Positions 20,701 through 64,000 of a DNA stretch of 64,000 bases are shown here, piece by piece. Origin of the DNA: Euglena gracilis (taxonomy: Eukaryota); assembly GCA_039621445.1 (NCBI GenBank), contig CP154954.1, positions 7,938,634 to 8,002,633 of the forward strand, read 5' to 3'. A model generated the notes under the pieces. The model saw only the letters and a list, made by a program, of their open reading frames with translations. It did not search any database and was not told the DNA's origin. The translations under genes were made by a program, and so were the position numbers. Within the stretch, counting starts at the first letter, position 1, and every line of letters begins with the position of its first letter.

Positions 20701-21268
20701 GCAGAGGCCGGGACGATATTATGGATGGATGAGGGCGTGCCCGCTGGGGGGCAGGGGCCGGGATGATATGATGGATGGATGAGGGCGTGCCCGCTGGGGG
20801 GCAGGTGACGGGATGATATGATGGATGGATGAGGGCGTGCCCGCTGGGGGGCAGGGGCCGGGATGATATGATGGATGGATGAGGGCGTGCCCGCTGGGGG
20901 GCAGGGGCCGGGATGATATGATGGATGGATGAGGGCGTGCCCGCTGGGGGGCAGGGGCCGGGATGATATGATGGATGGATGAGAGCGTGCCCGCTGGGGG
21001 GCAGGAGCCGGGATGATATGATGGATGGATGAGGGCGTGCCCGCTGGGGGGGCAGGGGCCGGGATGATATGATGGATGGATGAGGGCGTGCCCGCTGGGG
21101 GGCAGGGGCCGGGATGATATGATGGATGGATGAGGGCGTGCCCGCTGGGGGGCAGGGGCCGGGATGATATGATGGATGGATGAGGGCGCCCCTCCCCCCC
21201 GGGGGGGGGCCCTCAGGGGGGTGGGTGGGTGGGGGGGGACCGCCCCCCCGGTCTTAAAAAAACCCCTG
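11712..21268. mobile_element. Non-autonomous TIR element (hAT-like) expanded to 9.56 kb by an internal satellite
   Basis: TIRs CAGGGATTTTTTTAAG / CTTAAAAAAACCCCTG (15/16); perfect 8-bp TSD ATAGCAGC at 11704-11711 and 21269-21276. Confidence 0.88.
12055..21188. repeat. 50-bp G-rich tandem satellite, about 180 copies
   Basis: Monomer GATGGATGGATGAGGGCGTGCCCGCTGGGGGGCAGGGGCCGGGATGATAT. Confidence 0.97.
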
Positions 21269-28076: not shown

Positions 28077-28775
28077 GCCGCGATCCTTTCCCTAATTGTT
28101 GCGAAGGGCGGCAGGCGGACAGGCGCAACTTTGCCCGCGGCGGGCGTGCGTAAAGCGCAGAATTTTCCGCCCGGGAGGCGCAAAATAGCACGTAAGTAAC
28201 GAACGCCCGAAATAACGCCATTTTTCGGTCATTTTCGGCCAAAATCGGCTGCGGCGGCCCTCCAAAAACGAGCGGTCTGCCCCGGCTAGAGGTCGGCGAT
28301 CCTTTCCCTAATTGTTGCGAAGGGCGGCGGGCGGATCGGCGCAATTTTGCCCGCGGTGGGCGTGCGTAAAGCGCAGCAGTTATCGCCCGGGAGGCACAAA
28401 ATAGCACGTAAGTAACGGACGCGCCAAATAACGTCAGTTTTTCGGTCATTTTCGGCCAAAATCGGCTGCGGCGGCCCTCCAAAAACGAGCGGTCTGCCCC
28501 GGCTAGAGGTCGGCGATCCTTTCCCTGCTTGTTTCGAACGGCGGTGGGCGGATAGTCGCAATTCTGCCCGCGGCGGGCGTGCGTAAAGCGCAGCAGTTAC
28601 CGCCCGGGAGGCGCAAAATAGCACGTAATATATTGCTGCGTTTTACGAACACCCGCCACGGGCAAAATTGCGCCTGCCCGCCCGCCGCCCTTCGCAACAG
28701 TTAGGTAAAGGATCGCCCACCTCTACCCGGGGGGGAGCGCTCGTTTTTAGAGCGCCGCCAAAATCGAAAAACGGT
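28077..28775. repeat. Three ~216-bp tandem units ending in an inverted copy (foldback structure)
   Basis: GATCCTTTCCCT...GGCGG at 28082, 28298, 28515; reverse-complement copy at ~28660-28770. Confidence 0.8.
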
Positions 28776-37201: not shown

Positions 37202-37829
37202 TTGGGTGGGGAGGGTTGGGTGTTGTTGGGTGTGGGTGGGAGGGGGCTCACCTTCCATCGACAAATTTTAACGATTGTCCAGTAGCCGTATTACGAGCCA
37301 CTGGAATAAGCCACTAGCCGGCTAGACCGCCCCTCCGGGGACCCTGAACTGGAATTTTTTTTCTCTGGCGCTGCGTGCCGAGGTGGAAATGGTATTTATT
37401 TTGTGTTCTTTTTGTTCCAAAAATTCCTAAAAATTCCTAAAAATGGCCAAAAATGGGCATTCCTGGCCATTTTGGGGGGGGTCAAAAAAATGCACCAGCC
37501 ACCCCCAAGCGGAACCCCCCCCCCTGGGGGAGGGTCCAGTTGGATGTCCACTGGCCAAATTTGGACAGGGGGGGGGTATATCAGAGGATTTGGTGCCATG
37601 AATAATTAATCAGCTAACCCTGCATGTTTGGGTCACCCTCCTGCTTAAGGGTTCGCAGCCTCCCTCTCCCGAGGAGGCTTGACTGCATGGCGTTTGAGCC
37701 CCCCTGTGCTGTGCTTGAGCTGGAGGGGATGGAAAGAATGCTTGGGAAGCCCGGGGGGGGGGGTCCGGACCCCTCCCAACATGGGGGGGGTCACACACGC
37801 ACGCACGCACGCACCCACCCACCCACCCA

Positions 37830-37860
<31 letters not shown>

Positions 37861-38060
37861 CACAAACGCACCCACCCACGCACCCACGCACGCACCCACC
37901 CACGCACCCACCCACGCACCCACCCACGCACCCACCCACGCACGCACCCACCCACGCACCCACCCACGCACCCACGCACGCACCCACGCACGCACGCACG
38001 CACCCGCGCACCTGCACACACGCACACACACACACACACACACCAACACGCCACCCACAC
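35975..38060. repeat. Cluster of CA/CACG/CAACA microsatellites
   Basis: Simple repeats at ~35975-36166, 36539-36600, 37147-37200, 37792-38060; further (CA)n at 40417-40468 and ~41030-41095. Confidence 0.9.
36167..36538. mobile_element. MITE inserted in a (CA)n tract
   Basis: Starts CAAGGTGT, ends ACGCCCTG; ACACACAC on both sides (TSD uninformative because it is microsatellite). Confidence 0.6.
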
Positions 38061-41950: not shown

Positions 41951-43287
41951 TTACTGCGCCTTTGTTGCCGGAGTTGGCGATGATGAGGCCTCCTCCGACA
42001 TCTTGGCGAAGCTGAAACGCCGTGGCCCCGCCCCCCCCCTCTCCCATGGTCGCTTGGTGGGGGCCCCCCCCCCTGATGGGGATGGTGGTCTCTTTCTGTG
42101 TTTCTGGGTGGGTGGTTGGGGCTGCTTGGTTGGGGGTCCCTTTTCTGGTTGGGATGTTTTTCTGCTGATTTTTTGGGTGGGAGGGTTGGGCTCACCATCT
42201 TCTTGTGCTTCGCCCTCTTGGTCCCTTCCTCCCCCTTCCTGTGTCGTGGGAGTCCGAGACCATTCGGGCTCCGCACTGCGAGATGGTGAGGTACTGTGCA
42301 CCCCCCTTTGGGCCATAATATTTTGAATTTTTGACACGACTCCCAGCCTCAAATAATGGGCTTGGAAGGCACCAAAATTTTTCCACTGACCCAGCTGCTG
42401 GACTTCTTCCACTTGCAAACCAGCATTTTTCCACCATAAGACCCCAGCCCCTCTGGTGCTGTGGGGTTTCCAGTGGGTGGTGTCCACCCCCCCCCCTCCT
42501 GCAGAATTTCTTTGGTTAGGGAGTTCACCCTTTCTGATGTCAAAGGTCTTTTACCATCCAAAGACCACAACAAATTATTTTTGTGCCCAACCATGTGGGC
42601 TGTCCTTTCCACATACTCTTTCAATAAATGCCATGGGCTTATGAGGGGGGTGTGTGGCAAATTCAAAATCTCTTCCCATTTTGGGAATTGCCACCCTTTC
42701 CTTTGCAATAAAATGAAAATTTTTTCTCCCACGAAACTGATTTTTCGCTGTGTCCTGGCTAAATCAACCCCCCTGTGGAGGGCCAAAAGCCTCCAACAGA
42801 TGATGAGTCTGTTTCTGAGCTCTTTCACAGATAGGTCTGAGAGGGGTGTGGAATTCCTCATGATGTTTTCTAGGAAATCAGTGGGGTCCCAAAAGTGGGC
42901 ATACTTGCAGACATTGGCATTCCACTTCCTTTTCAATGGAGCCAGAAGGGGTGAAAATCTCAAAGACCCAAACCCTGGGAGTAGTAAGGCTGCTGCATAT
43001 GCATTTCGTGCAGTATTGATGCTATGAACAGCAAGATCAAGGATGGCTTCAGCCATCTTGGGGACTGTGCACTGCTGCAGAGGCACCCCTTTGTGCAATA
43101 ATTGACCCACCAATGCCCTGAAGGCTGAGTCATATCTTTTGACATTTCCCAGATTTTTTATGTAAGTGTCGATACTGGACATCGAAACTTCCTGGGATTG
43201 TAATATTTGCCTGACACAATCAAGCAGGCCAAATTCCACCTTGGGGGGGGCATCTCCTCCCCCCAGCAGTTGGTGAACAGACCCCAC
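41951..43287 (-). CDS. DIRS tyrosine recombinase (frameshift at the homopolymer near 42490)
   Basis: Catalytic-type motifs LHRGVDL, HSTRGAG, LGQW, AHY split across ORFs 42349-43287 and 41951-42487. Confidence 0.88.
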
Positions 43288-46066
43288 TGGGGGGTACTAG
43301 CAAAACCTTGCTGCCTGGCTGCCTGATTGACATTAATTGGCGCCACCATGATGTCGAAGCCCAGTGGGGTACAATCAACAGACAAATTAGGTCTGGGTTT
43401 AACATTAATCTCTGAATCCATTGGGGAATGATGCTCCAGGGAGGGTTGGCATAAACTGGGGGGAGACCCCTTAAATCTGCCTTCAGAGCATCCACCAACA
43501 AAGCCCCTTGGTGGGGGTATCGACAAATGAACTTGGGGAATTTTTTGTTGCTGGGTGTGCAAAACATGTCCACCTCTGGGGTGATGTGGTTTTTGAAAAA
43601 CTTCAGAATCTGGTGAAAAATGGTCAGATTCAGGGTATAATCCCCTGGATCTTTTTGCTCCCTGGTCAGGGAGTCTGCCAATTGTTCTTTTGTGGGAACC
43701 CAAACCACCTGCAAGTTGATTTGCCTTTCTTGGCAATGGTACAGAAGGGGTTTTAGGATGGAATTTAAATATGGCTTTTTGCCTCCCCATTTTGTCAAAT
43801 AACTGACTGCCACCTGGCTGTCCACATGAAGAACAATGGTTTGTTTTGGTTTTGCCAAAGCCTTTACAGTTTCCACCGCAGACATCAATTCTTTTTGATT
43901 GATGTGAAGGACATGCAGGTCCCTCCAGAAATCCTGGACCTTTTGACCAGACTTTTTGTCCAGCCCCCCCCATTGCCAGGTGCTGCTGTCTGAGAACAGT
44001 TCCTGAGAGGCCTGGGATTGAAAGGCTCTGCCCACACCTGGCTGCAAAAACGTTTTTAACTCCACAATTTGATCTTTGACCCCCTGGGGAATGGTCAGGG
44101 TGTGGTCCCAACCCCACTTTGTGTGCAAATCCACCATTTTGCAAAGTTGATCTGTCAGAATTCTGAGAAAAGGCATTGAAACTAAATAGCTTCTGACTTG
44201 CCCTACAATAGAGCTGAGTTTTCTGCAGCTCATCTTTTGTGCTGTCAGCACCTTTCCTAATTCCTTTCTTAGGGATTTTAATTTTTCCTGTGGAATTTCC
44301 AGCTGGCCTTTTTTCAAATTGATCCACTGGCCCAAATGCTTTATTTCTTGTGTTGGTTCCAGACATGATTTGGGGAGGTTTATTCTGAAACCTGCCAGTA
44401 AAAGATCTTTTTTCATTTCTGCCAAATGCTGGGCTGCTGTCTTTTTGCTGGGGGCTAACAGCAAAATGCCGTCTAGGTAGATGAAAACTACCTTTCCTTC
44501 CTTCCTCCATTTCCTTTCCCAGACTCTCATGAGAGTCATAAACTTTTGTGGCAGGCTGCTTAACCCAAAGCATGCAGCTTGAAATTGCCACGTTTCCCCC
44601 CCCACTTGCATGCAGACATGCTTTTCCAGGCTGCTGTGCAGCTTTAAATGGAAATAAGCATCTTTCAGATCTATTTTTCCACAGAACCAACCCTTTCTGA
44701 GATATGGGAAAATGTTTCCCATGTGTTCCAGTCTGAACTTCTGGGGGGTGAAATAGTGATTTAACTGTCGACAATCTGAAATTAGTCTTTCCTTGGTCTT
44801 TTCCCCTTCTTTTTTGGAAATTATGAAGTAAGGGACAAAATGTTTTGCCTCCTCTGGGGGGATTTGCCTGGTTGCCCCTGCACATTCGTATTCTCTCAGA
44901 ATTTTTTGGGCAGTCATTACTTCCTTGGGGGCTTTGAAGGGAACTTTTAAGGACATTAGAGGGGGGAGGGGAAGATCTGCCATGACCCCTTCCCTTATCA
45001 GGTTTAATACCTCTCTGCTGGCACCTGCCTTTTCCCAATGGGGGATACTGGCCTGCAGGGCTTTGTAAGGGGGCACCCCTGGATGTAATGTGTCTGGGGA
45101 TTCCACAGGCCCCATCACTGGGGTCCTTCCCCCTGGCTGCCCCATCACTGGGGTCCTCTCTGGCTGCCCCATCACTGGGGTCACCTCTGGCCCTGCCATA
45201 GGGCTGCTCAAAGACAGGCTTTCCCCCTGTTTTTGAAAGATGGGGGAAGGTCTGTTTCTGCAGTGGGGAGGTACATATACAGCTGGGGGGTGTGGGCTGA
45301 TTATCTTCTGGGGGGGCCCTGGTGTAGCCAATCTTGGGCCTCCCCCCCAAGGGCTGTGGTCTTGAATGCATTGGCCTCCCATGGCCACCTGATTTTGATT
45401 GAAATGGCCTCCATTGGCCTTGATATTTTTCCTCTGGCCTCCATTGGCCTCTTGGATATAATGGCCTCCATTGGCCTGCCCCTGAAGGGGGGGCTGCTTG
45501 CTTGGATGGGCAGCTCCTGAGGGGTTTTTGATTGAGGGAGCTGTGGGGTAAGTTGGACATACCTTCCCCCAGTGGGATCTTCCCAGGTTGGGATACAGGC
45601 TGCCATAGCCTTGCAACTGGGCCCACTGCCCTCTTGAATGCTGGCTGCCATAGCCTTGATTCTGGGCCCCAGGCCCTGTTAAATGATGGCTGCCATAGCC
45701 TTGAGTTTGATTTGAATCCTTTCGATTTCTGATATCTCCAGAGAGGCTGCCATAGCCTTTGCTTTTTCCCCTGGAAGGGGAGGAATTGGGAAAAAGGGGT
45801 GGAGTCTGTTGGACCTGTGATGGTAGTCCCCCTCTGTCTTCTCTTCCTGACCACTGCTGTCCATGGTCCATGGCCATCATTTTGAGTGGGGGATCCTGAA
45901 AACTTTGAATTGCTGGGGGGTGGGGGGGTTGCGATGGCCACGGACTGACGTGCTGCTGCCGCCTCATCACCTTCTGCAGCTGCTGCTGTGTGTCCACCTT
46001 CCCCAGCTGTTTTCTTGGAAGTTCGTTGGAGTTCTTCTTGGCAGTTTGAATTTCTTTGCAGATCAT
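43158..46066 (-). CDS. DIRS pol: reverse transcriptase, RNase H, phage-type adenine methyltransferase-like domain
   Basis: KIDLKDAYFH, CFGLSSLP, IYLDGILL (YLDD expected), FSDSS/HINQKEL/VDS/ADSLTR (RNase H), VDMFC...YANPPW...VPHW...WW (MT); apparent 1-nt indel in the G run near 43290. Confidence 0.9.
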
Positions 46067-49000
46067 TCTTCATGGAAGTCCAGTGTGATGCTGTCTTCTT
46101 AATTGAAATATTTCTGGGATAATTCCAGTTGAACTCGAAGAGTTGAATTCTTCCTCCTGGAAGTCGAAGGTCAGCAAAAACTTTTGATCCACCAGTTGAT
46201 AATTCGCCGTTCTTCGGTGAATGTAATGCTCCTTGTAAATATTTTCCAAGTGAACTCGTAGCAGTAAAATTCTTTCTCCTTGAGGTCGAAGGGCAGAATT
46301 AGGAATCAGCCAACTCCGGCAACAAAAAGCAGTAAGAAGCACCCCCCGCGCACGCACAAACACACCAGAACAGAACAGCCGGCAAGGAAAGCAGGACCTC
46401 ACCATCTCGCAGTGCGGAGCCCGAATGGTCTCGACCAACCTGTTCCAGTAAACTTCAACCCAGCGTGCAAGATGGCGATGACGACATTCTTCTCCAGGTC
46501 GTGTAGTTGGTCCTTAGTTGGTCCTTAGTTGCACCAAGTTGAAAATGAACTCGGTCCACGATTGTTCGAGGAGCGGTCCTTCCTCGGTGAGCTGGGCAAC
46601 GAGATTATTCTCCACGTCCATCTTGTATTGGATTGATTGCAATCTTCACCAATTATGGATCTTGTTGGTACTTGTTGATCTTGCTTGCTTTGCTGTGCGA
46701 TAGCTTGTGATAGCTTCCCTTTGTAGCAGGGCTACGTCAGCCAACTGCCGGCGCGAAGAGCAGTAAGGAGAAGACGCAAGGCAAGAAAAACAAAGAACAA
46801 TAGCCGGCGAGGGAAAGACAGGTCCCATCGAGCCAAAGTGTGGAGCAAGGGTGGTCCGCCTACCCTTGTCACGGAAAGCCTGAGGGCCCTTTTTTATTTT
46901 AAAAAACCACCGGCCTTCTTGGGCTTTTCCGGCTGGCCTCCGTCCTCTTTTGGGCGCCATCGCGTCCGTCCAGGGTGGGCTCCCCGCCAAAGGAAATTCA
47001 AGGTCAGCCCCGAAAAGCCCAGCTTTGTCGAAGATTTTTCCGTGCGAACGCAGTCGCAGGTACTCTTTTTTCGGGAAAGCGAGGGGTAGCGCCGAAAGCC
47101 ACCTCGGGCCACCTCGGGCTCCGCACTTTGCCCTTGTGAGGCCATGCCTTGTTCGCCGGCGGTGTTGTTTGGATCGTTCGTTGTGCGTTGGGTTAGGAGT
47201 CCCCGCTTAGTGTCTTTTTTCGTCGGAGCTCGCTGATTCTTAATTTCCCCTTCGACCCAGAAGAAAGGATCTTCAATACAAGAACCCTGACAATTGGATA
47301 TCAAAGGATAGGTCAACTAAATTTTACGGAAAGCGACCCTCGTGCAGAAGATAAAATCAAATTTTGTCGACAAATTAAAGATTTCAATGACAAAGGCCCC
47401 CGGAATTTCAAAGACAAAGAAGAGCATCGCTGGTCAACAAGAACTGGCTGCCGCTGCAGCTGGACGACCTGACAGTGTGGTGCAATCGTGGCGAATCGTG
47501 GCTGTCCCTCCCCTCCCAGAAAAAATTTCTGATCACCCACCCAGCGACAGCCACGGACTGTGGCAGACAGTGGTCAGAAAAACCTGAAGGACACAAAAAG
47601 AAAGACAACTGTCAGGCCACTACAGCCAAGGCCATGGAGGCCTATATCCCAGTCACACAAATACATCGTTCAAGCTGGGCCACGGAGGTCACAAAAGCAA
47701 TGACCACATGGAACAAAGGCCAGGGTGGCCAACAATATCAAACCCACGGAGGCCGACTCCACAAGCAGATGCCCAGTGGCAGGGGCAGGACAGGTCCGGA
47801 ACACCCCCCAACCATTTCTTCATCACAACCCCTTTCAGGGGCAAAGGAGTGGCCCCCAGAGGCCCCACAAGATTTTCAATGGGCATGGCGTCACAGAACA
47901 AAGAAAAGTCAATGGTGACTTTCAAAGTTTCAAGAGAATTATTCTCATCAAGGCCCCCGGACCCCTCATCACGCTCAAGTCCAACAGTTTCCTCAAACCC
48001 CTTCAGGGGTAAAGGACTGGCCCCCAGAGGCCCCCCAAGATCTTCATTGGGCATGGCGTCCCAGAACAAAGACAAGTCCATGGGGTTTGTCAAAATTTCA
48101 AAAGGCGGGTGGACTCAACATCAAGAGTGCCAGTGGGGCCAGGATTTTTGTCAAGGCCACTGGGGCTAGCATTATTCTCATCAACCTGGTCAAGACCAAC
48201 AATTTCAAGGCCATTGGGGCCATCAATTATCAAAAGGGGGAAAACCCCAGAAGTTAAAAGGCTGTTCCCGCAAAATGGGAATTCAATATACTGTGGCAGG
48301 CCTGGGAGGAAGCCCCAAGAGGGGCAGTGGATGACAAGTTCTTCAATGCCCATGGCAGGGGCAAACCAAAGCAAGGGGGAAGGGGCCACTACGGAATGTC
48401 AATTGACAACACCAACGACAAAGTGGAGGATGCACAAACAATTGATTTTTTTTGTAGTTTTGTACCAGTGCATGGTGTGGGCAAAAAACCCTGTGTGTGA
48501 GATTGTGTTTGAAATTGGTGGGTTCGAGTGGGGACTTTCTTAGGTTAATTAGGGAAAATGGAAAAAACCTAATGTGAAAAATTGGTCGGCCGGTCTTGAA
48601 AACTTCCAAGAATCGGCCTTGCTTGGGTGACTTTAGGTGGGTAGGCTCCACCCCGCTGCCGTGAGGTGTCCGGGACTGTGCAGCCCTGGCCAGGGGTCGG
48701 TGGTCTCTGCAGGGCACTGGGGGCTCGCTGGGGCCTGGTTGTTCGTGGCCGCCTGGGCACCCGGGCAACCGAGGGGGGCGCGGCATGGCCCCTTGGGCAC
48801 CCCTCCTCGGCTGCAGCTCCCTGTCAGCGGCCCCCAGCGCCCCTCGAGACCCCGGTCCTCCGGCCGGAGCTGACCAGCTGCAGGCACCCTCCGGGCTGTA
48901 TGGGCTTCACCTGCCTGACCGGCCGCCCCTCCAGGCCCCCCCTGGGGTTGCCCGGACGGTACTGAAGCCGCTTAGGATCCCTTCGGGGCGGTCGGCCCAC

Positions 49001-49994
49001 CCCACCCTCCTCCATGCCCACTCGCCGCGGGGAGCAGCGTGTGGGTTTAGGAGGGGTGCGGCCTGCGTTGGCGGCATGCCTCGGCTCCATGGCATGCCCC
49101 CGGGGTACCACCGTGCCACTGAGGCTGGAGGTGCAGGTCCGACTTGGTACCCCGTTGGGGGGTGTACAGGGAGTCTGCAGTCGACACACCTTGTTTAAAA
49201 AGAAAAAATTGTGCAGCTGGACGGCTACTCGACACCGTAATTACTTCAGGCATTTGGGCTTTCGCGTCGGAACCCAGCGAAACGTGCGGGGTTAAGCTAC
49301 CAGCTTTCCCTACCGCATGGGAAACGAGCGGTAAAAGTGCTGTGGGTACGGGGGCAGCTTTCTATTTACCCCTAGGGTAGGAAACGGTGTTTTCGGTTGT
49401 GGGAAACGTTATGGAAATGCGGGGGGACGTCCGGGGTGACGTCACAGTGAACAAGTTTGGGGGTTCGGTGTGTGTGCGGACGGAAGTGCGCAAAACGTGC
49501 GAAGGACAATCCCACCACCAATCGGAGTTGTCGTAGGAATGGAAAAACCAGTATGACATTTGACCCGGCGATATTCGCCTCGAATGCCCAAGTACCCAGA
49601 AAATTTTGTAATTGTGGGGAGTGTGTGTGGTGCTTCAGGATAATGGGTAGGACTATGTCCAAAATGCATCCCAAGTCACCACCGCACATGGGGCTGTTGT
49701 CAGCGGCCATAATTTTGGTGAGATTCTTGGCATGAGCCAAGACGGGGGTGGGTAAAAGTCCTTTGCGGAAAAGAAGGGGGATTCGACACCCTGTTTCGAC
49801 TAAAATTTTGGCCCGTGCACAAACATTTTGGGTTTTGATTTTCGCTAGGACCAAAAGTTCCATGGGGGGTACGCAAAGCGAAGGGTCTGGTGTAAAATTG
49901 TTGTCGCGCCAACTGGTTCATGACCCTTTGCTTACTTTGCTCATCATTCCAAGCAAAAATTTGGCGCAGGGAGTGGGGGACGCGAAAATTTTCC

Positions 49995-50416
49995 GGGTAA
50001 ACGCCGCCCAAATAATATACCCCCCCGGTCTATTTTTTAGAAACCCGAATTCGGGGTCCAGGGGGGTTTATTTTTTGGGGGGGTTATTATTTGGGCAAAA
50101 AAATTGAAGGCAAAAATTGGCCCGAAAACCCCTCCAAGGCCCCAATGGTCACTTTTTTGACGTTTTTGGGCTTTTTTGAAAATTGTGTGGTTTTTGGCAC
50201 ATTTTATGCACCAATTTTTCCTATTTTTGTGATTTTCGGCAACATTTCTGTTAATTTTTGACTCTGTTTTTCTTTGGATTCACACCTGCCGGAGGGGGGG
50301 TTTATTATTTGGGCGGCCGAAGTCGGTCCTCAGGGGAGGGGTTATTATTTGAGGGGTTTATTATTTGGGGGGGTTATTATTTGGGGAGGTTTTATTATTT
50401 GGGGGGGGGTTTACCG
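49995..50416. mobile_element. MITE with GGTAAAC...AAATAAT TIRs and GGGGTTATTATTT subterminal repeats
   Basis: GGTAAACGCCGCCCAAATAAT / ATTATTTGGGGGGGGGTTTACC; sits between the gag and protease remnants. Confidence 0.7.
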
Positions 50417-57342: not shown

Positions 57343-57733
57343 CCTAAACCCAAAAAATAAACTCCCCCGGTTTATTATTTGGACACCCGAAGTCGGGGTC
57401 CAGGAGGAGGTTTATTATTTGGGGGGGGGGTTTATTATTTAAGCAAAAATTTCGAAGTCATAAATCAACCCAAAAAACCCTCAACGGGCTCCAATGCTCA
57501 CTTTTTTGGCAATTTTGGGCTTTTTTGAAAATTGGGTTTTTTTTTGGCGTATTCTGTGCACCAATTTGATCAATTTTTGTGATTTTTGTGCCGCTTTCTT
57601 GCAAATTTTGACTCTTTTTTCTTTGCCATCACACCTAACACAGGGGGGGGGGGTTATTTTTTGGGCCGCCGAAGTCGGTCCTCGGGGGGGGGGGTTATTT
57701 TTTGGGGGGTTTATTATTTGGGGGAGGGGTTTT
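57343..57733. mobile_element. Second, diverged copy of the 49995-50416 MITE
   Basis: Colinear similarity (CCCGAAGTCGGGGTCCAGG, GGCCGAAGTCGGTCCTC, TTATTATTTGGGG). Confidence 0.7.
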
Positions 57734-60175
57734 CAAGGGGCAAGAAGCCACGTCGCCAAGTCGGAGCAGCATCGTCATCCAACTCGGGCGAGGCGACACT
57801 CAGCGGGGACTCCTAACCCAACGCACCACGAACGATCCAAACAACACCGCCGGCGAACAAGGCATGGCCTCACAAGGTCGTTGTGCTTTGCCCTCGGTGT
57901 CCCTTCCTCCTTGTCGGTTAACCTCGAGGGAGTACGGGGCGTTAGGTTCAAAAAATGACCAAGCGCATTTTTTGTCCTTGGGTATAGCGCCCCTTTGCCT
58001 TTCATAAGCTTTTCCGAAGCGCCAGTCTTTTTTACAAGCAAAACATTTCCCATCGAAAAGGGGCCACAAAACTGACGGCCCACTGATCGAGAAACGACTG
58101 ACCATGGCGCGAAAAAAATTCCATAGGGAAGACATTGTTGTTCCAACTCGAAAATTGCCCAGAGCGGAGCGTTGAAAATTTTACAGGAATTGGCGCTGTG
58201 TGAGTGACATGGACATCCCTCATCTTAAACAAACCTGCCCGGCCCAGGTCCGGGGGATGGTCGGGTTGACTTGATGGGCTGGGCGGTCCCAGAAGGCCCA
58301 AATAAAGCTGGGTTGGCTTTCTTTTTCAGCCAAAACTGAGGTCCCCAAACCCCGGAGGGAATGTTTTCATGCTTTTAAAAAAAAAGTTGGTTTTTCTTCA
58401 GGTTCCCGTTCCATTTTTTTGAAAAGTCCAACCGATGAATTTGAGGATGGAGCCTCAAGAGGGTCTGAAACTCTTTTTCGAACTGCGCGGGATACCCTAT
58501 CAAGTTAACCATCACAACGGTGCCGAAGGCGTTGCTTTCAAGAGAGGGAGAACCAGGAAGTCCACCAATCTCCTCACAAATCGTCAAAAAAGGGGGTTTA
58601 GAAATAATGCCAGAGCACTGCACCATACACTGGAACTCCTTGCACGCAGAACAGTGAACAAAGGTAACCTTTCGAGAGACCAAATAATGCACCAGACTGA
58701 TGAGAGCTGGAAAAGGAGGTTCACAAAGCAACGCAAATTATTGTTGCAACAGGATGCCGATACAGAGCGTCGAGCAGTAAGGTGGCAACCAGCAATTGGG
58801 GATTTACTTTGTCAAATTAGTTTGCGTTGGAACGTGTCGGCCGCCGGCTTTCGCAGGCAGCCAAAAATTGCCAGAAAGCGCATATTACAAAGTCGCGGGT
58901 AACAGCCAATCAGTTAGAGAAACCCGCGACTTAAATTGGAAGCGGGTCAAATTTCTAAGCGCCTTCAAATTTATCATTTTTCACAGAAACTTGAGGGGTT
59001 TTCCCCATTATTTGGCAAAGAGGAAATATATTGAATTGGATTTGATCAATCACATTGTTGAATTTGAATTGACAGTTACATTGTTGGTCATTACATTGTT
59101 GGTGGAGTTGTTGAAGTCAATTTGGTATTGAAATCAAGAAGGAGACCCTACAACACCGCCACCCTCACCGCCGCTTCTATTCCCTATACCCCTCTTCCTT
59201 GCCCCAGGTTGTTTTTTTCATCACATTCAGTCACTCTCACAGATTTCCAACAGTGTCATTGCTTCTCCAGTGGGTTGGAATTCATTTCAGAATTCAGTGG
59301 TTTGGTTTTTCCTTCAAGGTGTGCAAGAGAGTGTGAGAGAGAGAAAGAGAAAAAAGTGAGATTTCAGAGAGAAAAGTTCTATTTCATTGCAAATGGCAGA
59401 TTTTTCGGTGTTCACCAAATTTTCAGAAAACATTAAAAAAACGATCCTACCCACCGGCAGGGGTTGGGGAAAATACCTGAGTGAAACAAACGGGGGTTGG
59501 CTTGAGCCCACCAACCCTCGGAGAAAGCGCAGGCCCCACCCCGGAAACACCCACCCCCCGGCTGTTGGTGGTTTTCCACGACGGCGAGGACCCCCCGGGC
59601 GCTCGGCCCACCGGGACTCGCCGGTCGCGGGGGCGACCGGCGGCGCACAGGGGGTGGGGCCGGCGAACATGGTCGCAGATGTTTGTTCTGCTGGCTCTGC
59701 CAGCAGAATCATTGAGGATTTTTCAGATTCGGTGAACATCGTGGCAGAGGTTTGTTCCACTGGCTCAGCCAGCAGAATCAGTGCAAAGTTTTCGGATTCG
59801 GCTGACATCGCAAGCAAAGGTTCTTTCACTGACCCAGTCAGTGAAAATTTTCCAGAGACGGTCGACACGGTCACAGAGATTTGTTCTGGTGGCTGTGCCA
59901 GCAGAATGGTGCACGAGGACAGTTTCATCATCCCTGTGGTCTGTGAATTTTCAGAAGAATCTGCAGAAATCTGCTCGTTTCCCGGCCACATTTTCTGAGA
60001 TATGTGGCAGAAATCTATTTTCAGAACGAAAAGGAAACTGAATTTTCTGCAGCCCAGTTTTCAGAACCTGTGGCATCATTGCAAATCATGAGCTGTTAAC
60101 ACAGAGTTCAGAAATCGCAGTCAGCACAGCAGATGAAGAAAAGACAATGAAAAGTTTGTAAGAAAGAAAAGACAG

Positions 60176-60505
60176 TGTGCTTTGAGTTCGGAGCTATGGG
60201 GGGTTTTGTTTTTGGTCTTGGGGTTGTTTTCTTTGGTTGTTTTGTTGTGTGTTTTGTTTTTTTTATGCTTGTTGTCTTTTCTTTTTGGGGGTTTTTGTTT
60301 GGTTTTTTGGGTTTCGTTTTGGGTTTTGGTTGGGGTGTGGGGGGGGTGCTGTTTGTTGTCTTTTTTTTTGGTTTGGGTTTTTGTTAGTTGTTTTGTTTTG
60401 GTTTTGTTTTTTTTTTTGTTGGGTTTTTTTGTGTTTGGTGTGTTTTTTTGGGTTGGGGTTTTTTGTTTGGGGTTTTGGTTTGTTTGTATTTTGTTTTGTT
60501 TTGTG
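60176..60505. repeat. T/G low-complexity tract
   Basis: About 330 nt almost devoid of A and C. Confidence 0.9.
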
Positions 60506-60516
60506 GCTGAGATATC

Positions 60517-63500
60517 TTGTCCCAGCCCAAGACTTCACAGGTTTCAGCCCAGCCCAGCCAGTTGCGGATGGAGTCATCTGTCCCAGCAATCATGGGGCCA
60601 GCCCAGATGACTTCACAGGTTTTTCAGCCAGCCCAGCAGTTTTCGGCTGAGTCATCTGTCCCAGCAATCATGGGGCCATCCCAGATGACTTCACAGGTTC
60701 TTCATCCAGCCCAGCAGTTTTCGGCTGAGCCCTCTGTTCCAGCAATCATGGGACCAGCCCAGATGCATGGGCAAGTTTTTCAGCCAGCGTTAACAGTGTC
60801 TTCAAACACAGGCCCAGCCCAGATTTTCCAGCTAATTCAGCCAGATTTTCCACAGACCCAGCCACAGAATTTACAGCCAAACACCAGTTCTTCTGCAGAA
60901 ACTGGGTCCGAAAACCCTGAAAATCAGCATGATGTGGAAATGGAATCGGGCTATGGCCAGTCCGATGATGATTGGAACAATTGGGGTGAAGAAATCAGTT
61001 GCAAAATTGAATGTTTACATTGCAGACTTTTGGTGCAGGAAGGAAAAAAATCCTGAGAAAACGGCTGAAAATCTGGTGGGGGAGGCAGAAAACAGGCTAA
61101 ATCAGGCATTGGCCATGTCACAGGGGCAGACATTGAATCTGGTCAATGAGGCATTGGGCATGCATGATCAGCAAATGGCGGATCACATTGCCATGGTGAA
61201 ACGTGAAATTCAGGCTGAACTGAGTGCAACCATAAACGACTTGCTTTTGCAGTTTCAGCAAAATGGTGAAATGGTGCAAAATCTGGCCCAATGCCAAAGA
61301 CATTTGTTGAGTGTGGAAATGGAACGGCAGTTTGCTGAAAAAGTGAAGAAAGTGGAGGATGGAGTAAACACGTTTTTTGAGACCAAGGTTGAGGGGTTGA
61401 CAAAAAATGAGAGGGATTTTTCTCAGAAGCTGTCGTTTTTGGAAAAATCTGTGGGGGAGATGCATGTGGCGGTGCAACAAGTTGGGGAGAAGGAAAAACA
61501 GCAGGAAATTGCTGTTAATCAGGTCAAATCTGCAGTCGGTGAGCTAAGCTCTGGTCTGGAGGGACGCTTTGGGACCATTTTTCAGCAATGCAAAAGTTTG
61601 GAGGAGACTGAGTGTGCCAATTTTCAGGCACAGGCTGAGAAATTGAAGGAATTTTCACAGTCCCTGGAGCGAGAGAGCAAAGCTCTGAATGATCGTTTGG
61701 GGAGGTTGGAGAATTTTCTGGGTCGGAAAGATTTTCCCATTGAGAAAGTCTCTGCCCTGATTAACAAGAGTGAGGAAACAATTCGGTTGGAGGTGCAAAG
61801 GGAGTTGGGGCTGCAAACGAGAAAGCATTTGGAGGTGATTATCAGTGAAATGTTGCACGAAAGGTTGAGGCTGAGTGAAAGGGAGAGGCAGTTTGAGAAA
61901 GTTCGGGCCGAAATGGAAAACTCGATGAAACAGCAGGTTGGAGTTTTACTGCAACAGCAGTGCGTTGAACTTCGAAAAGAACAGCAGGAGCGGAAAAAAT
62001 TGAAACAAAAGCTGGATTTATTTCAGGCTGAGATTTTGGTGATGAAAAATCAGCAAGCTGAATCTGCCAAATCTGCGACAGTGGATCTGACAAAGGAAAC
62101 GAGAGAAAAATCAGCTGGAAACCCAGAAATCGACGAGTTTGATCTTTTTGGTTGCAATGATTTACCTGTGATCGAGAAAAATCTGGTTGAAATTGAAGAC
62201 TATGAATACGCTGAACCAGGGTCACATGCGACACATGTCAGGCAGGTTTGTGCACGACCTGTGGGGGCAGTGCCTGCAGGTGCAGGGCTGGTTTCATCAA
62301 ATGCAGTGGTAACGCATCAATTGATGAAAAACCTGGTAGCTCCAAATTTTTCTGGACAGCCAAAAGACTGGTCGTCCTTTGTGCGGGATTGGGATCAATA
62401 TGTCAGGACGTTGGTTATTTTGCAAAATGGACATGTGTCTGATTCACTCAAACTTCGGCTTTTTGCAATGACGCTGGACGACACAAATAAAAAGGAATTG
62501 CAATCCCGAATGGAATTCAACCGAAAAACATCTTTCGACGAGGAATTTGACAGGATTGACGGGAAAATGCTGGAACTCAGTCCGACTGTGCCAGAAAAAA
62601 ATGGAATGATGTCCACCTTGTGAACCAAGGGAAAATTACTGTACGGGAATGGCAAGACTTTGTCATAAATTTCAAAATGGCCTGGAGACAGGTGAAAAGC
62701 GCCACTGACGATGAGGCAGAAAGACTGGTCAAAGGAAAACTGCCAAATTTCATTTTGCATTGGGTCGCCGATGAGGAGGAAAGGAAATCAACGTGTGGAC
62801 CGAAAGTCAAAATGTACCCTGGAGTGCCAGCAACGGAGGAAAACATTATTTGTGCTGTGGAACGTGTCACTGGGGAAAAGCCCTGCAAGGTTTCGAAAGT
62901 TTCACCGCTGGAGTTCGAAGTCTTTTTGCCCTATACTACGATTTGCTACAAACTGAAAGAGGTCAGTGTGAAACCAATCACAGGCACGGATAAAAGAATC
63001 AAAATTGTGGAGGAACAGTCAAAAATGTGAGCTGAAGAAATTTTCCGTTTTGTTGAGCGAAAATTGTCATCCAGGGATAATCAAGACATGTTACACAGTT
63101 CCGGAGAGCCAAATGGGTCCGGAAACCGGAGGGCCAGGACTGAAAAGGCAGATCGGGCCAAGGGGTCCAGGACACCCTCCCCAGCACGGTCAGCAAAGGG
63201 GGGCGAAACGGTGGTAAAACCGTCCGTTGAAAAATCAGATTCACAGGTGGCAGCTCCGGCGACCGATGCAAACGCGAACCCCCAAGTGCAAAATCCAGTG
63301 CCAGTGGTTCGATCACAGTCATATTCACCCCCCCAGCAATCTCAATTTGGCAATGGGGGTGGATGGAGAAACGATTCTGGGAGGAATTCCAATGCCAATG
63401 CCAATTTTCAGGGAAATCAGTGGTGGCACTCAAATCAACAGAATTTTGATTCACAGTTTGGTGGTGGCAAAGGCAAAGGCAAAGGAAAGGGCAAAGGAAA

Positions 63501-63606
63501 CAATTCTTGGGGGAAAGGAAACAATGGAAATGACTGGTCTAGGGGAAAGAGCCAAGATGGTGGAAAAGGCAAAGGCAAAGGAAGGGGGAAAGGAAACCGT
63601 TGCTAG
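60517..63606 (+). pseudogene. Gag-like ORF of a retroelement (two frameshifts at A runs, one internal TGA)
   Basis: 78-bp in-frame repeats at the N-terminus, long coiled-coil-like region, PNFSGQPKDWSSFVRDWDQYV capsid-like motif, GKGKG-rich basic tail, TAG at 63604-63606. Confidence 0.7.
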
Positions 63607-64000
63607 GATAGCCGGGGTGGACCGTTGGGGGCGGGGGCCGCCCCGGGCTCACATACCCAGCCCCACACAAAGACATACACAAATCCCAGGTGGCATGAAA
63701 AATCTCGTGCGAGTGAAACCACGATGAAAAATCTGCCATCCCAGGAGATCTCTGCACAAGGTGTGTCCAGTGTGTCGGGTGCGTGCCTGCGTGACGTGCA
63801 AATCTGTGACTCGGCCCAAATCTGTAAAGAATCAGACCTCATAAGAGGTCGTGCACAGCCTTCCGTAAGGAAAAGAGCTTTAGACTTTTTTTGCGGTAAA
63901 GGCTCGGTTGGGGATTGCCTGAGAGAGCAGGGGTTTAAGGTTGTGTCAGTGGACATAAACCCCAGATTTAACCCAACCCACTGTGCAAATATTTTGGAGT
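63607..64000 (+). CDS. Open frame after the gag stop; N-terminus of a C5 DNA cytosine methyltransferase-like domain (runs off the window)
   Basis: Manual translation: RKRALDFFCGKGSVGDCLREQGFKVVSVDINPRFNPTHCANILE = FxGxG motif I, a VVSVD strand and a motif III-like NI. Not in the ORF track because no stop is reached. Confidence 0.75.

What the first reader, a model, noticed from the sequence alone, without database searches (positions are those of the whole stretch)
60517..64000. Retroelement with a C5 cytosine methyltransferase-like domain directly behind gag
Seen: the gag-like ORF is followed in frame by ALDFFCGKGSVG...GFKVVSVDIN...THCANILE. Known: FxGxG plus an acidic second strand is the SAM-binding start of C5-MTases, and DNMT-carrying retrotransposons are described in dinoflagellates and charophytes. 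Inference: the compact form looks more like viral or prokaryotic C5-MTases than Dnmt1/3/5 and may be an independent capture in this lineage, possibly for self-methylation.
Basis: partly seen in the sequence, partly recalled or inferred. Interest (0 to 1): 0.8.

Follow-up and report, generated by a model that had tools for sequence, protein, structure and literature searches.

The report
Euglena-type retrotransposon carrying a compact cytosine methyltransferase
The window ends inside a decayed copy of a very abundant retrotransposon, probably of Euglena gracilis, whose gag-like gene is followed by the start of a small virus-type DNA cytosine methyltransferase; a 2026 preprint already describes this kind of element.

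Summary
The peptide is real. ALDFFCGKGSVG..VVSVDINP..ANILE lies at 63877-63999, in the same frame as the two ORFs before it, with a TAG at 63604-63606 between them. It covers only motifs I-III, because the window ends there. It matches the N-terminus of a large family of ~195-aa domains: 118 of 172 fetched members hit it. The family has an invariant PC cysteine and ENP glutamate. Its model folds like DNMT3/DNMT1/M.HaeIII and most resembles a 218-aa Tetraselmis virus 1 methylase. Relatives are fused to protease, RT, RNase H, integrase, chromodomain and Dam. Three of them also share the window's gag-like domain. The gag region is 83-92% identical to a Euglena gracilis transcript that reads through two frameshifts of this copy. 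The repeat is very abundant from about 58.8 kb onward. A 2026 preprint describes Euglena LTR elements with DNMT, DAM and a chromodomain. PC/ENP and RT in this particular copy could not be checked.

The parts
58804..60516 (+). 5' non-coding part of the repeat (possible LTR or leader). Its left edge is approximate. It includes a T/G-rich low-complexity stretch at about 60180-60500.
   Evidence: Summed contig depth rises from about 130-440 (58000-58803) to 2e5-7e5 from the 58804 bin onward in runs X1 and X3 (table 2). Other copies skip about 500 bases (60113->60616) and hold about 33 other letters there (tables 5 and 5c). Sequence read. No second copy lies in the window, so no LTR pair could be defined.
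60532..61047 (+). gag-like gene, N-terminal part (frame 1), with 78-base repeats that encode ..PAQMTSQVFQPAQQFSAESSVPAIMG..
   Evidence: P0174 residues 2-173 align here at 90% identity. Tandem repeat at 60522-60788, period 78.
61046..62566 (+). gag-like gene, middle part (frame 2): a long helical, coiled-coil-like region and the first half of the conserved gag-like domain (FSGQPKDWSSFVRDW...).
   Evidence: P0174 residues 173-679 align at 92% identity. Residues 466-540 of ORF 60929-62623 match P0137 (E 1e-8), L002 ORF1 (E 6e-6) and L005 ORF1 (E 0.009). Colinear alignment.
62569..63027 (+). gag-like gene, second half of the conserved domain (frame 1). It corresponds to the part that is RRM-like in the model of the L002 homologue. 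It ends at a stop (63028-63030) that other copies lack.
   Evidence: P0174 residues 681-721 align at 83% identity. Alignment A3 is colinear with P0137, L002 and L005. 63028 T>G in 43 of 43 X1 contigs and 54 X3 contigs (table 3). L002 model residues 170-254 match RRM folds at Z 7.4-8.8.
63064..63603 (+). Low-complexity basic linker rich in G, K, N and Q (GKGKGKGKG...), same frame. It ends at a TAG (63604-63606).
   Evidence: P0137 has a similar GGKGGKGGKGG stretch between its gag-like domain and the enzymes. Contigs of other runs bridge 63459-63748 across the TAG (table 8).
63607..63876 (+). Stretch leading into the methyltransferase, same frame.
   Evidence: tblastn alignments of P0037, P0040, P0137, P0005 and Cymbomonas proteins start between 63625 and 63820, upstream of motif I.
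63877..63999 (+). Start of a compact C5 cytosine methyltransferase domain: motif I (FFCGKGS), the acidic end of strand 2 (VVSVD) and motif III (ANIL). Cut by the window end.
   Evidence: 68% identity over 40 aa to P0001. 118 of 172 family proteins hit this stretch. The family invariants F6, G8 and D27 are present. X15 and X20 contigs run 241 and 128 bases past the window end (table 8).

Best explanation
Positions 58.8-64.0 kb are the 5' part of a decayed copy of a very abundant retrotransposon of Euglena gracilis or a close relative. It encodes a long gag-like protein made of N-terminal repeats, a helical region, a conserved gag-like domain with an RRM-like part, and a G/K-rich basic tail. After a TAG, in the same frame, comes a polyprotein that begins with a compact (~195 aa) virus-type C5 DNA cytosine methyltransferase.

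By analogy with its relatives, the part beyond the window most likely continues with a Dam-like adenine methylase, an aspartic protease, RT, RNase H, integrase and perhaps a chromodomain. That would make it an LTR, Ty3/chromovirus-like element of the 'EpiLTR' kind.

Inferred mechanism: the methylase is made as part of gag-pol and methylates CpG in the element's own new cDNA or in nearby host DNA. New insertions would then match a host genome in which CG methylation is the default state.

Shown: the fragment belongs to this family, the family is a C5-MTase by motifs and fold, relatives are fused to retroelement enzymes, and this copy is broken and highly repeated. Inferred: everything downstream of 64000, the enzyme's activity, its target and its benefit.
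For: Family membership:
- P0001 at E 2.3e-6, 68% identity over 40 aa.
- 118 of 172 family proteins hit 63.6-64.0 kb.
- A search with P0001 found 2500 representatives at E<=1e-3 and 1232 at E<=1e-10.

C5-MTase nature of the family:
- The PC cysteine and the ENP glutamate are invariant in 30 of 30 aligned members.
- PF00145 reaches >=22 bits in 13 of 25 members, and 19 of 25 score E<=1e-3.
- The family profile hits DNMT1 motifs IV-VI at E 3.4e-4.
- The AlphaFold model of P0003 (pLDDT 88.9) matches DNMT3A/B/C, DNMT1, M.HaeIII and DIM2 at E 1e-9 to 1e-7.

Retroelement linkage:
- P0045: MT-RT-RNaseH-integrase-chromo. P0038: MT-RT-RH. P0066: MT-RT.
- P0170: RT-RH-MT-IN-chromo. P0152: MT-Dam.
- L005: upstream ORF, then PR-MT-RT-RH-IN. 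L002: upstream ORF, then Dam-PR-MT-RT.

Same architecture as the window:
- P0137 matches both the gag-like domain (62246-62557, E 5e-9) and the MT start (E 1e-8).
- L002 and L005 share the gag-like domain in the ORF upstream of their MT.

Organism and transcription:
- P0174 is EukProt EP00667_Euglena_gracilis_P004907, transcript 4936. It is 83-92% identical and reads through both frameshifts.
- Contigs of the RNA-labelled run X20 cover 61.2-64.0 kb.

Abundance: 16329 contigs of X1 and 13158 of X3 were laid on the 6 kb at >=90% likeness, against single contigs on the left flank.

CpG depletion: CpG observed/expected is 0.52-0.57 and TpG/CpA is 1.35-1.39 in the element.

Literature: Euglena LTR elements with chromodomain, DAM and DNMT, and CG methylation as the near-default state in E. 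gracilis (bioRxiv 10.64898/2026.05.21.726589, sections 7 and 8 and passages).
Against: - The window ends after motif III, so the PC and ENP motifs, the RT and the LTR pair of this copy were never seen.
- No genome is held. A degenerate DNA scan of metagenome contigs found 0 matches. A near-length protein search found none.
- The fragment alone does not reach PF00145.
- The copy has two frameshifts and at least one acquired stop, so it is not functional as it stands.
- The TAG at 63604-63606 may be the true end of gag or may be further damage.
- No Pfam gag family is matched. Foldseek gave no match at E<=1e-3 for the gag-like model. Capsid matches are middling: PEG10 CA at Z 8.2, MLV CA at Z 7.3, Copia CA at Z 7.6 with rmsd 13.4.
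- The Euglena DAM elements are described as a mix of DIRS and LTR types, and a DIRS-like RT+Dam ORF lies in this same window.
- The placement of a 43-aa fragment in the tree is weak: 18% of columns filled, and no starred set holds it.
- No methylation data or enzyme assay were examined.
Confidence: 0.8

Rival explanations
1. It is a DIRS-type element that uses a tyrosine recombinase and has no integrase, carrying the methylase. It is not an LTR/Ty3-like element.
For: The preprint calls the Euglena DAM group a mix of DIRS and LTR elements. SymbioDIRS-Dnmt3 is a precedent (PMC5890265, section 6). The window holds a DIRS-like RT+Dam ORF at 43220-46069 on the minus strand.
Against: The relatives that share the window's gag-like domain carry an aspartic protease (P0137, L002, L005), and L005 also carries an integrase. 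Members of the tree half that holds the window fragment include P0045 with integrase and chromodomain. No tyrosine recombinase was seen in any relative scanned.
Confidence: 0.13
2. The methylase start belongs to a separate unit that happens to lie behind an unrelated gag-like repeat. This could be a nested insertion, an endogenised viral gene or a host gene.
For: A TAG and about 270 bases separate the G/K-rich ORF from motif I. Standalone homologues exist on virus-like and virophage contigs. The preprint mentions possible nested insertions and chimeric elements in Euglena.
Against: The very high summed contig depth runs unbroken from 58.8 kb to the window end, apart from a dip at the T/G-rich low-complexity bin 60211-60411. 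Short contigs from other runs bridge 63459-63748. P0137, L002 and L005 show the same order, gag-like domain then MT, in independent sequences. The fragment is most similar to retroelement-linked members (58-68% identity) and less to virus-context ones. It falls in the tree half that holds none of the 26 low-GC loci.
Confidence: 0.05
3. The domain is not a DNA cytosine-5 methylase. It might be an RNA m5C enzyme or an inactive relic that serves as a structural part of the polyprotein.
For: The domain is short (~195 aa) and has only a small Cys/His-containing stretch where C5-MTases carry the target recognition domain. PF00145 scores are marginal, 19-35 bits. DNMT2-type tRNA methylases appear among weak profile hits at E 0.07-0.12.
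Against: The catalytic Cys, the ENP Glu and the motif I residues are invariant across 30 of 30 diverse members. The best fold matches are DNA methylases. One of the viral matches is a lymphocystis disease virus DNA methyltransferase. Iridovirus genomes are heavily methylated at CpG and encode such putative enzymes (PMC2396429, passages).
Confidence: 0.04

Closest known systems
EpiLTRs / DNMT-bearing DAM-LTR retrotransposons of Euglena gracilis and Cymbomonas tetramitiformis (Fernandez-Moreno et al., bioRxiv 10.64898/2026.05.21.726589; abstract, sections 7 and 8 and passages read)
   Same: Probably the same host species, judged from P0174. The DNMT family is the same: the Cymbomonas cluster P0121/P0154 was recovered with P0001 at E 7.5e-35, with architecture PR-RT-RH-Dam-IN-chromo-MT. 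The closest relatives of the window fragment, P0002 and P0152, carry Dam directly after the MT.
   Different: In Cymbomonas the DNMT sits at the 3' end of pol. Here it sits directly behind gag, at the 5' end of pol. Dam and chromodomain were not seen in this copy because the window ends. The preprint's supplements and sequences could not be read, so identity with its Euglena family is not shown.
SymbioLINE-Dnmt, SymbioDIRS-Dnmt3 and charophyte DNMT3 retrotransposons (de Mendoza et al. 2018, PMC5890265; abstract and section 6 read)
   Same: A C5-MTase is encoded inside a retrotransposon. In SymbioLINE the DNMT lies in the ORF upstream of the RT. The host genome is methylated at most CG sites. 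Self-methylation of cDNA has been proposed.
   Different: Those are Dnmt3-type or an orphan Symbiodinium lineage, carried in LINE, DIRS and other backbones. The preprint states that the Euglena/Cymbomonas DNMT is a distinct acquisition, sister to DNMT4. I ran no phylogeny against those sequences.
Compact viral C5-MTases: Tetraselmis virus 1 putative cytosine DNA methyltransferase, iridovirus (lymphocystis disease virus) DNA methyltransferase, and virophage-contig homologues
   Same: About 200-220 aa with the same fold: Tetraselmis virus 1 at E 1.4e-18, TM 0.77 on the target, 31% identity. Standalone homologues at 31-35% identity lie on low-GC contigs, one of which encodes Sputnik-type capsid proteins.
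   Different: Those are free-standing viral genes. Here the domain is part of a retroelement reading frame. The tree splits the 70 rows that hold the window fragment and 18 of the 24 retroelement-labelled rows from the 62 rows that hold all 26 virus-context loci (SH-like support 98, FastTree, unrooted).
DIRS1-group and DAM-LTR elements with a Dam-like adenine methylase (PF05869)
   Same: A DNA methylase is embedded in a retroelement pol. Many members of this C5-MT family also carry Dam (P0002, P0014, P0040, P0152, L002).
   Different: Dam is an unrelated adenine-N6 enzyme. The window copy shows only the C5-type start.

Membership tests
C5 cytosine DNA methyltransferase (PF00145 superfamily) | Motif I, FxGxG, which binds S-adenosylmethionine | tested here: met
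   FFCGKGS at about 63886-63906. It aligns with the invariant F6 and G8 of the 30-member alignment.
C5 cytosine DNA methyltransferase (PF00145 superfamily) | Acidic residue at the end of strand 2 (motif II) | tested here: met
   VVSVD. This D is invariant (D27) in 30 of 30 members.
C5 cytosine DNA methyltransferase (PF00145 superfamily) | Motif IV, the PC catalytic cysteine, in this copy | not testable with these tools
   It lies beyond base 64000. No genome is held, the DNA scan found 0 and the protein search found none. In relatives C62 is invariant in 30 of 30.
C5 cytosine DNA methyltransferase (PF00145 superfamily) | Motif VI, ENV/ENP glutamate, in this copy | not testable with these tools
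   It lies beyond the window. In relatives E101 and P103 are invariant and N102 is present in >=90%.
C5 cytosine DNA methyltransferase (PF00145 superfamily) | Pfam PF00145 at or above the gathering score (22 bits) | tested here: inconclusive
   The window fragment gives no PF00145 hit. P0001 scores 20.8 bits. Of the relatives scanned, 13 of 25 reach >=22 bits, and P0003 scores 35.2.
C5 cytosine DNA methyltransferase (PF00145 superfamily) | C5-MTase catalytic fold | tested here: met
   Tested on the relative P0003, not on the window fragment. Model pLDDT 88.9. Top PDB matches are DNMT3A/B/C, DNMT1, M.HaeIII and DIM2 at E 3e-9 to 1e-7, TM about 0.5.
C5 cytosine DNA methyltransferase (PF00145 superfamily) | Target recognition domain between motifs VIII and IX | tested here: inconclusive
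   Relatives have only a short stretch with conserved C..C..H after the QKPTR motif. The model shows small strands and helices there.
C5 cytosine DNA methyltransferase (PF00145 superfamily) | DNA cytosine-5 methylation activity | not tested
   No assay or methylation data were examined.
LTR (Ty3/chromovirus-like) retrotransposon, EpiLTR kind | gag (capsid) gene upstream of pol | tested here: inconclusive
   The conserved domain is shared with the upstream ORFs of L002, L005 and P0137. The Atlas nearest clusters are PNMA, Retrotrans_gag and Ty3_capsid at score 0.85, which counts as a lead only. No Pfam gag family is matched. PEG10, MLV and Copia capsid matches score Z 7.3-8.2, which is middling.
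LTR (Ty3/chromovirus-like) retrotransposon, EpiLTR kind | Protease, RT, RNase H and integrase in the same element | not testable with these tools
   Beyond the window end. Present in relatives P0045, P0170 and L005.
LTR (Ty3/chromovirus-like) retrotransposon, EpiLTR kind | Pair of direct long terminal repeats | not testable with these tools
   Only the 5' part is in the window, and no second copy lies in the window.
LTR (Ty3/chromovirus-like) retrotransposon, EpiLTR kind | Dispersed, multi-copy repeat with diverged copies | tested here: met
   16329 (X1) and 13158 (X3) contigs were laid at 90-100% likeness, and the depth jumps at about 58.8 kb.
LTR (Ty3/chromovirus-like) retrotransposon, EpiLTR kind | Dam-like adenine methylase and chromodomain together with the DNMT (the definition of EpiLTR) | not testable with these tools
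   Beyond the window. The closest MT relatives, P0002 and P0152, have Dam right after the MT.
DIRS-type retrotransposon | Tyrosine recombinase instead of integrase | not testable with these tools
   Beyond the window. None was seen in the relatives scanned.

The most novel reading that the evidence does not exclude
The compact DNMT of these retroelements is a virus-derived module of the virophage, giant-virus and iridovirus type. It was captured by chromovirus-like elements at least twice: once for the large clade that holds the Euglena-type elements, and once for Cymbomonas, whose DNMT nests among standalone virus-context proteins in my tree. In Euglena, the very many copies of this element would then be a major source of the genome's near-default CG methylation, as has been proposed for Symbiodinium.
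Probability: 0.25. Interest if true: 0.6.

Novelty: new member of a known kind. Interest (0 to 1): 0.35.

Why it matters
Retrotransposons that carry their own DNA methylases show mobile elements manipulating the host's epigenetic marks instead of only being silenced by them. This copy adds one arrangement, with the DNMT directly behind gag at the 5' end of pol, in what is probably Euglena gracilis.

The searches also show that the module is widespread. There are 2500 representative clusters at E<=1e-3, and many of them come from unnamed aquatic metagenome contigs. The module's nearest structural match among viral proteins is a giant-virus methylase, and standalone homologues lie on virophage-like contigs. 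That points to a viral source and offers compact enzymes for testing CpG specificity.

The core finding is already in a 2026 preprint, and this copy is broken and truncated, so the value here is confirmation and context, not discovery.

Tried and rejected
- Own-genome search: no genome is held for this window.
- Second copy inside the window: none was found for 57-64 kb, so no LTR pair or full-length sibling was available.
- Extension past base 64000: a degenerate DNA pattern for VVSVDINPRF..PTHC found 0 matches in metagenome contigs. A near-length protein search with the fragment found none. The 'longer' search found only P0001. Contigs of X15 and X20 do run 241 and 128 bases past the end, but their letters are not given.
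The 7-member alignment worked.
- Gag fold: Foldseek against PDB gave no match at E<=1e-3, only weak RRM hits. VIA-wide was dominated by RRM folds for model residues 170-254, and the capsid hits were middling.
- Pfam at E<=1 on the upstream ORFs of L002, L005 and P0137 gave no gag family.
- Phylogeny: only a FastTree with midpoint root was built. The 43-aa window fragment fills 18% of the columns and no starred set holds it. No reference DNMT1-6 sequences were available, so the preprint's 'sister to DNMT4' could not be tested.
- Cluster look-ups gave names for only a few members: Cymbomonas, two small 'Genlisea aurea' contigs and the Euglena transcript.
- Earlier findings of this scan: nothing by place, sequence or words.
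- A leaf-litter metatranscriptome (X20) holds 24% of the sampled words. I draw no habitat conclusion from it.
- I considered a programmed frameshift to explain the frame changes and rejected it, because other copies carry the compensating indels.
Full report
**What is in the sequence**

The window is eukaryotic repeat-rich DNA. Satellites of 151 and 50 bases fill 1.3-23.3 kb, and no genome is held for it.

On the + strand from 60.5 kb there is a series of ORFs:
- 60517-61056, frame 1.
- 60929-62623, frame 2, 564 aa.
- 62620-63030, 63064-63606 and 63625 to the window end, all frame 1.

It is in the same frame as the two ORFs before it. Stops lie at 63028-63030 and 63604-63606.

**This copy is decayed**

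A protein from the EukProt Euglena gracilis set (P0174, EP00667_Euglena_gracilis_P004907, transcript 4936) was the only hit of a search with the gag-like region, at E 3e-80. It aligns colinearly with three frame pieces of the window: 60532-61047 in frame +1 at 90%, 61046-62566 in frame +2 at 92%, and 62569-62691 in frame +1 at 83%. Contigs of other copies show the matching differences: one base missing at 61044, an extra T after 62566, and G for T at 63028, which removes that stop (tables 3 and 4).

The intact gene is therefore one long ORF from about 60.5 kb to at least 63.6 kb, and the window copy has two frameshifts and one acquired stop. Whether the TAG at 63604 is ancestral is open. It is not among the differences listed, but only 40 of 321 were shown.

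The organism is most likely E. gracilis or a close relative. This is an inference from that one named protein.

**It is a very abundant repeat**

On 58000-64000, 16329 contigs of run X1 and 13158 of X3 were laid at 90-100% likeness. Summed depth jumps from about 130-440 (58000-58803) to 2e5-7e5 from the 58804 bin onward, and it stays high to the window end except for a dip at the T/G-rich low-complexity bin 60211-60411. Depth summed over contigs is not a copy number, but the contrast with the flank is clear.

Other copies skip the T/G-rich stretch 60113-60616. Contigs of the RNA-labelled run X20 cover 61.2-64.0 kb, and P0174 comes from a transcriptome, so some copies are transcribed. X15 and X20 contigs continue 241 and 128 bases past the window end, so the sequence does go on in other data.

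**The methyltransferase**

The fragment alone gives only weak Pfam hits (Methyltransf_23 at E 7e-4). A search for longer proteins found P0001 (303 aa, E 2.3e-6, 68% identity over 40 aa). P0001 continues with ..AAHAPCTEYSRA.. and ..WWLENPRTG...

A full scan with P0001 found 2500 representative proteins at E<=1e-3 and 1232 at E<=1e-10, sharing a domain of about 195 aa. Of 172 fetched proteins, 118 hit 63.6-64.0 kb at E<=0.01.

In an alignment of 30 short members, F6, G8, D27, C62 (of PC), E101 and P103 (of ENP) are invariant. The window has the first three.

PF00145 is matched at E<=1e-3 by 19 of 25 members scanned and reaches the gathering score in 13 of 25. The family profile finds DNMT1 motifs IV-VI at E 3.4e-4.

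The AlphaFold model of P0003 (pLDDT 88.9) matches DNMT3A/B/C, DNMT1, M.HaeIII and DIM2 at E 3e-9 to 1e-7. Among viral models the best match is a 218-aa putative cytosine methyltransferase of Tetraselmis virus 1 (E 1.4e-18, TM 0.77 on the target, 31% identity). Phage, giant-virus and lymphocystis disease virus methylases follow.

The family is thus a compact C5-MTase of viral type, and the window holds its first 41 residues.

**Link to retroelements**

Domain orders found in relatives:
- P0045: MT-RT-RNaseH-integrase-chromodomain.
- P0038: MT-RT-RH. P0066: MT-RT.
- P0170: RT-RH-MT-IN-chromo.
- P0182, clustered at 90% identity with MT-bearing P0077: RT-RH-IN-chromo. P0077 itself reads MT, protease, then the start of RT.
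- P0154 (Cymbomonas): PR-RT-RH-Dam-IN-chromo-MT.
- P0002 and P0152: MT-Dam.
- L005: a 958-aa upstream ORF, then PR-MT-RT-RH-IN. L002: a 1255-aa upstream ORF, then Dam-PR-MT-RT.

The conserved domain at the end of the window's gag-like gene (FSGQPKDWSSFVRDW...) is shared with P0137 (E 5e-9 by tblastn; E 1e-8 by blastp), with the upstream ORF of L002 (E 6e-6) and with that of L005 (E 0.009). P0137 also matches the MT start and has a similar G/K-rich linker.

So the order gag-like domain, basic linker, enzymes including this MT recurs in independent sequences. That argues against a chance juxtaposition.

**Is the upstream gene gag?**

This is only partly shown. No Pfam gag family is matched. The Atlas nearest clusters are PNMA, Retrotrans_gag and Ty3_capsid at 0.85, which counts as a lead only.

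A model of the L002 homologue (pLDDT 80.9) gave no Foldseek match at E<=1e-3. VIA-wide shows an RRM-like fold for residues 170-254 (Z 7.4-8.8) and middling capsid matches: PEG10 CA at Z 8.2, MLV CA at Z 7.3, and Copia CA at Z 7.6 with rmsd 13.4.

I read it as a divergent gag whose nucleic-acid binding may rest on an RRM-like domain and the G/K-rich tail instead of a zinc knuckle. This is an inference.

**Viral relatives and the tree**

Standalone homologues at 28-35% identity lie on low-GC contigs. L018 encodes Sputnik-type major and minor capsid proteins. L016 and L022 encode viral-type helicase or primase domains. L007 and L008 carry other DNA-modification genes.

A FastTree of 131 domains plus the window fragment splits them in two, with SH-like support 98. 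One side has 70 rows: 18 of the 24 retroelement-labelled rows, the window fragment, and none of the 26 low-GC loci. The other side has 62 rows: all 26 low-GC loci, many ~200-aa proteins, and the Cymbomonas cluster.

The tree is unrooted and quick, and the fragment's placement is weak. I use it only as a lead for a viral origin and possibly two captures.

**What is known**

De Mendoza et al. 2018 (PMC5890265; abstract and section 6 read) described DNMTs in Symbiodinium LINE and DIRS elements and in charophyte elements.

Fernandez-Moreno et al. 2026 (bioRxiv 10.64898/2026.05.21.726589; abstract, sections 7 and 8 and passages read; supplements closed) describe 'EpiLTRs' in Cymbomonas and Euglena gracilis. 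These carry DAM, DNMT and a chromodomain. Their DNMTs form one group sister to DNMT4, distinct from the dinoflagellate and streptophyte cases. The preprint also reports near-default CG methylation in E. gracilis. A search for Euglena gracilis + retrotransposon + DNMT listed 4 papers, of which only this preprint is relevant.

The window element is therefore most likely a member of an already described kind. The DNMT position directly behind gag differs from the Cymbomonas layout.

**Mechanism (inferred)**

The methylase would be translated with pol and released by the protease. It would then methylate CpG on the element's cDNA or on nearby DNA. The element is CpG-depleted (observed/expected 0.52-0.57; TpG/CpA 1.35-1.39), as expected for methylated DNA, but so is the rest of the window (0.60-0.67). 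Iridovirus genomes, which encode similar putative enzymes, are heavily CpG-methylated (PMC2396429, passages). No activity was tested here.

**Verdict**

The novelty claim falls: this is a new member of a known kind. Interest 0.35.

Noticed in passing
window 43158-46298 (-) and 49513-49884 (-): A second retroelement lies on the minus strand. The ORF 43220-46069 encodes RT (E 1.6e-12), a weak RNase H and a Dam-like adenine methylase (E 0.0055). It is overlapped almost entirely by another open frame of 1046 aa (43158-46298) that has no Pfam match. A degenerate aspartic-protease-like stretch (ETG in place of DTG) lies upstream at 49.5-49.9 kb. No C5-MT domain was found in it.
   Followed up: partly
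window 1290-23338: Long satellite arrays: a 151-base unit (many blocks) and a 50-base unit with 183 copies at 12056-21188. The latter has 67% GC and a GC skew of about +0.5.
   Followed up: no
window 60113-60616: A T/G-rich low-complexity stretch of about 500 bases lies in the element's leader. Contigs of other copies skip it and hold about 33 other letters instead, so it is variable between copies.
   Followed up: partly
L018:6447-7223 and L018:12497-15491: A 24.6-kb low-GC metagenome contig encodes Sputnik-type virophage major and minor capsid proteins together with a standalone compact C5-MTase of this family. L016 and L022 look similar, with helicase or primase domains.
   Followed up: partly
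P0137 and P0014 (proteins): The two best architecture matches are labelled Genlisea aurea, but they come from contigs of only 3460 and 2531 bases. They carry gag-like/Dam/PR/C5-MT retroelement parts like those of the protist elements. They may not be plant DNA; this is an inference and was not tested.
   Followed up: no
window 37792-38058 and 28080-28628: A (CACG)n microsatellite of about 62 copies, and a 217-base tandem repeat of 2.5 copies.
   Followed up: no
window 57349-57724 vs 50007-50371; 57795-57903 vs 47106-47214: Other interspersed repeats at 80-89% identity are shared between the left flank of the element and the region around the minus-strand element.
   Followed up: no
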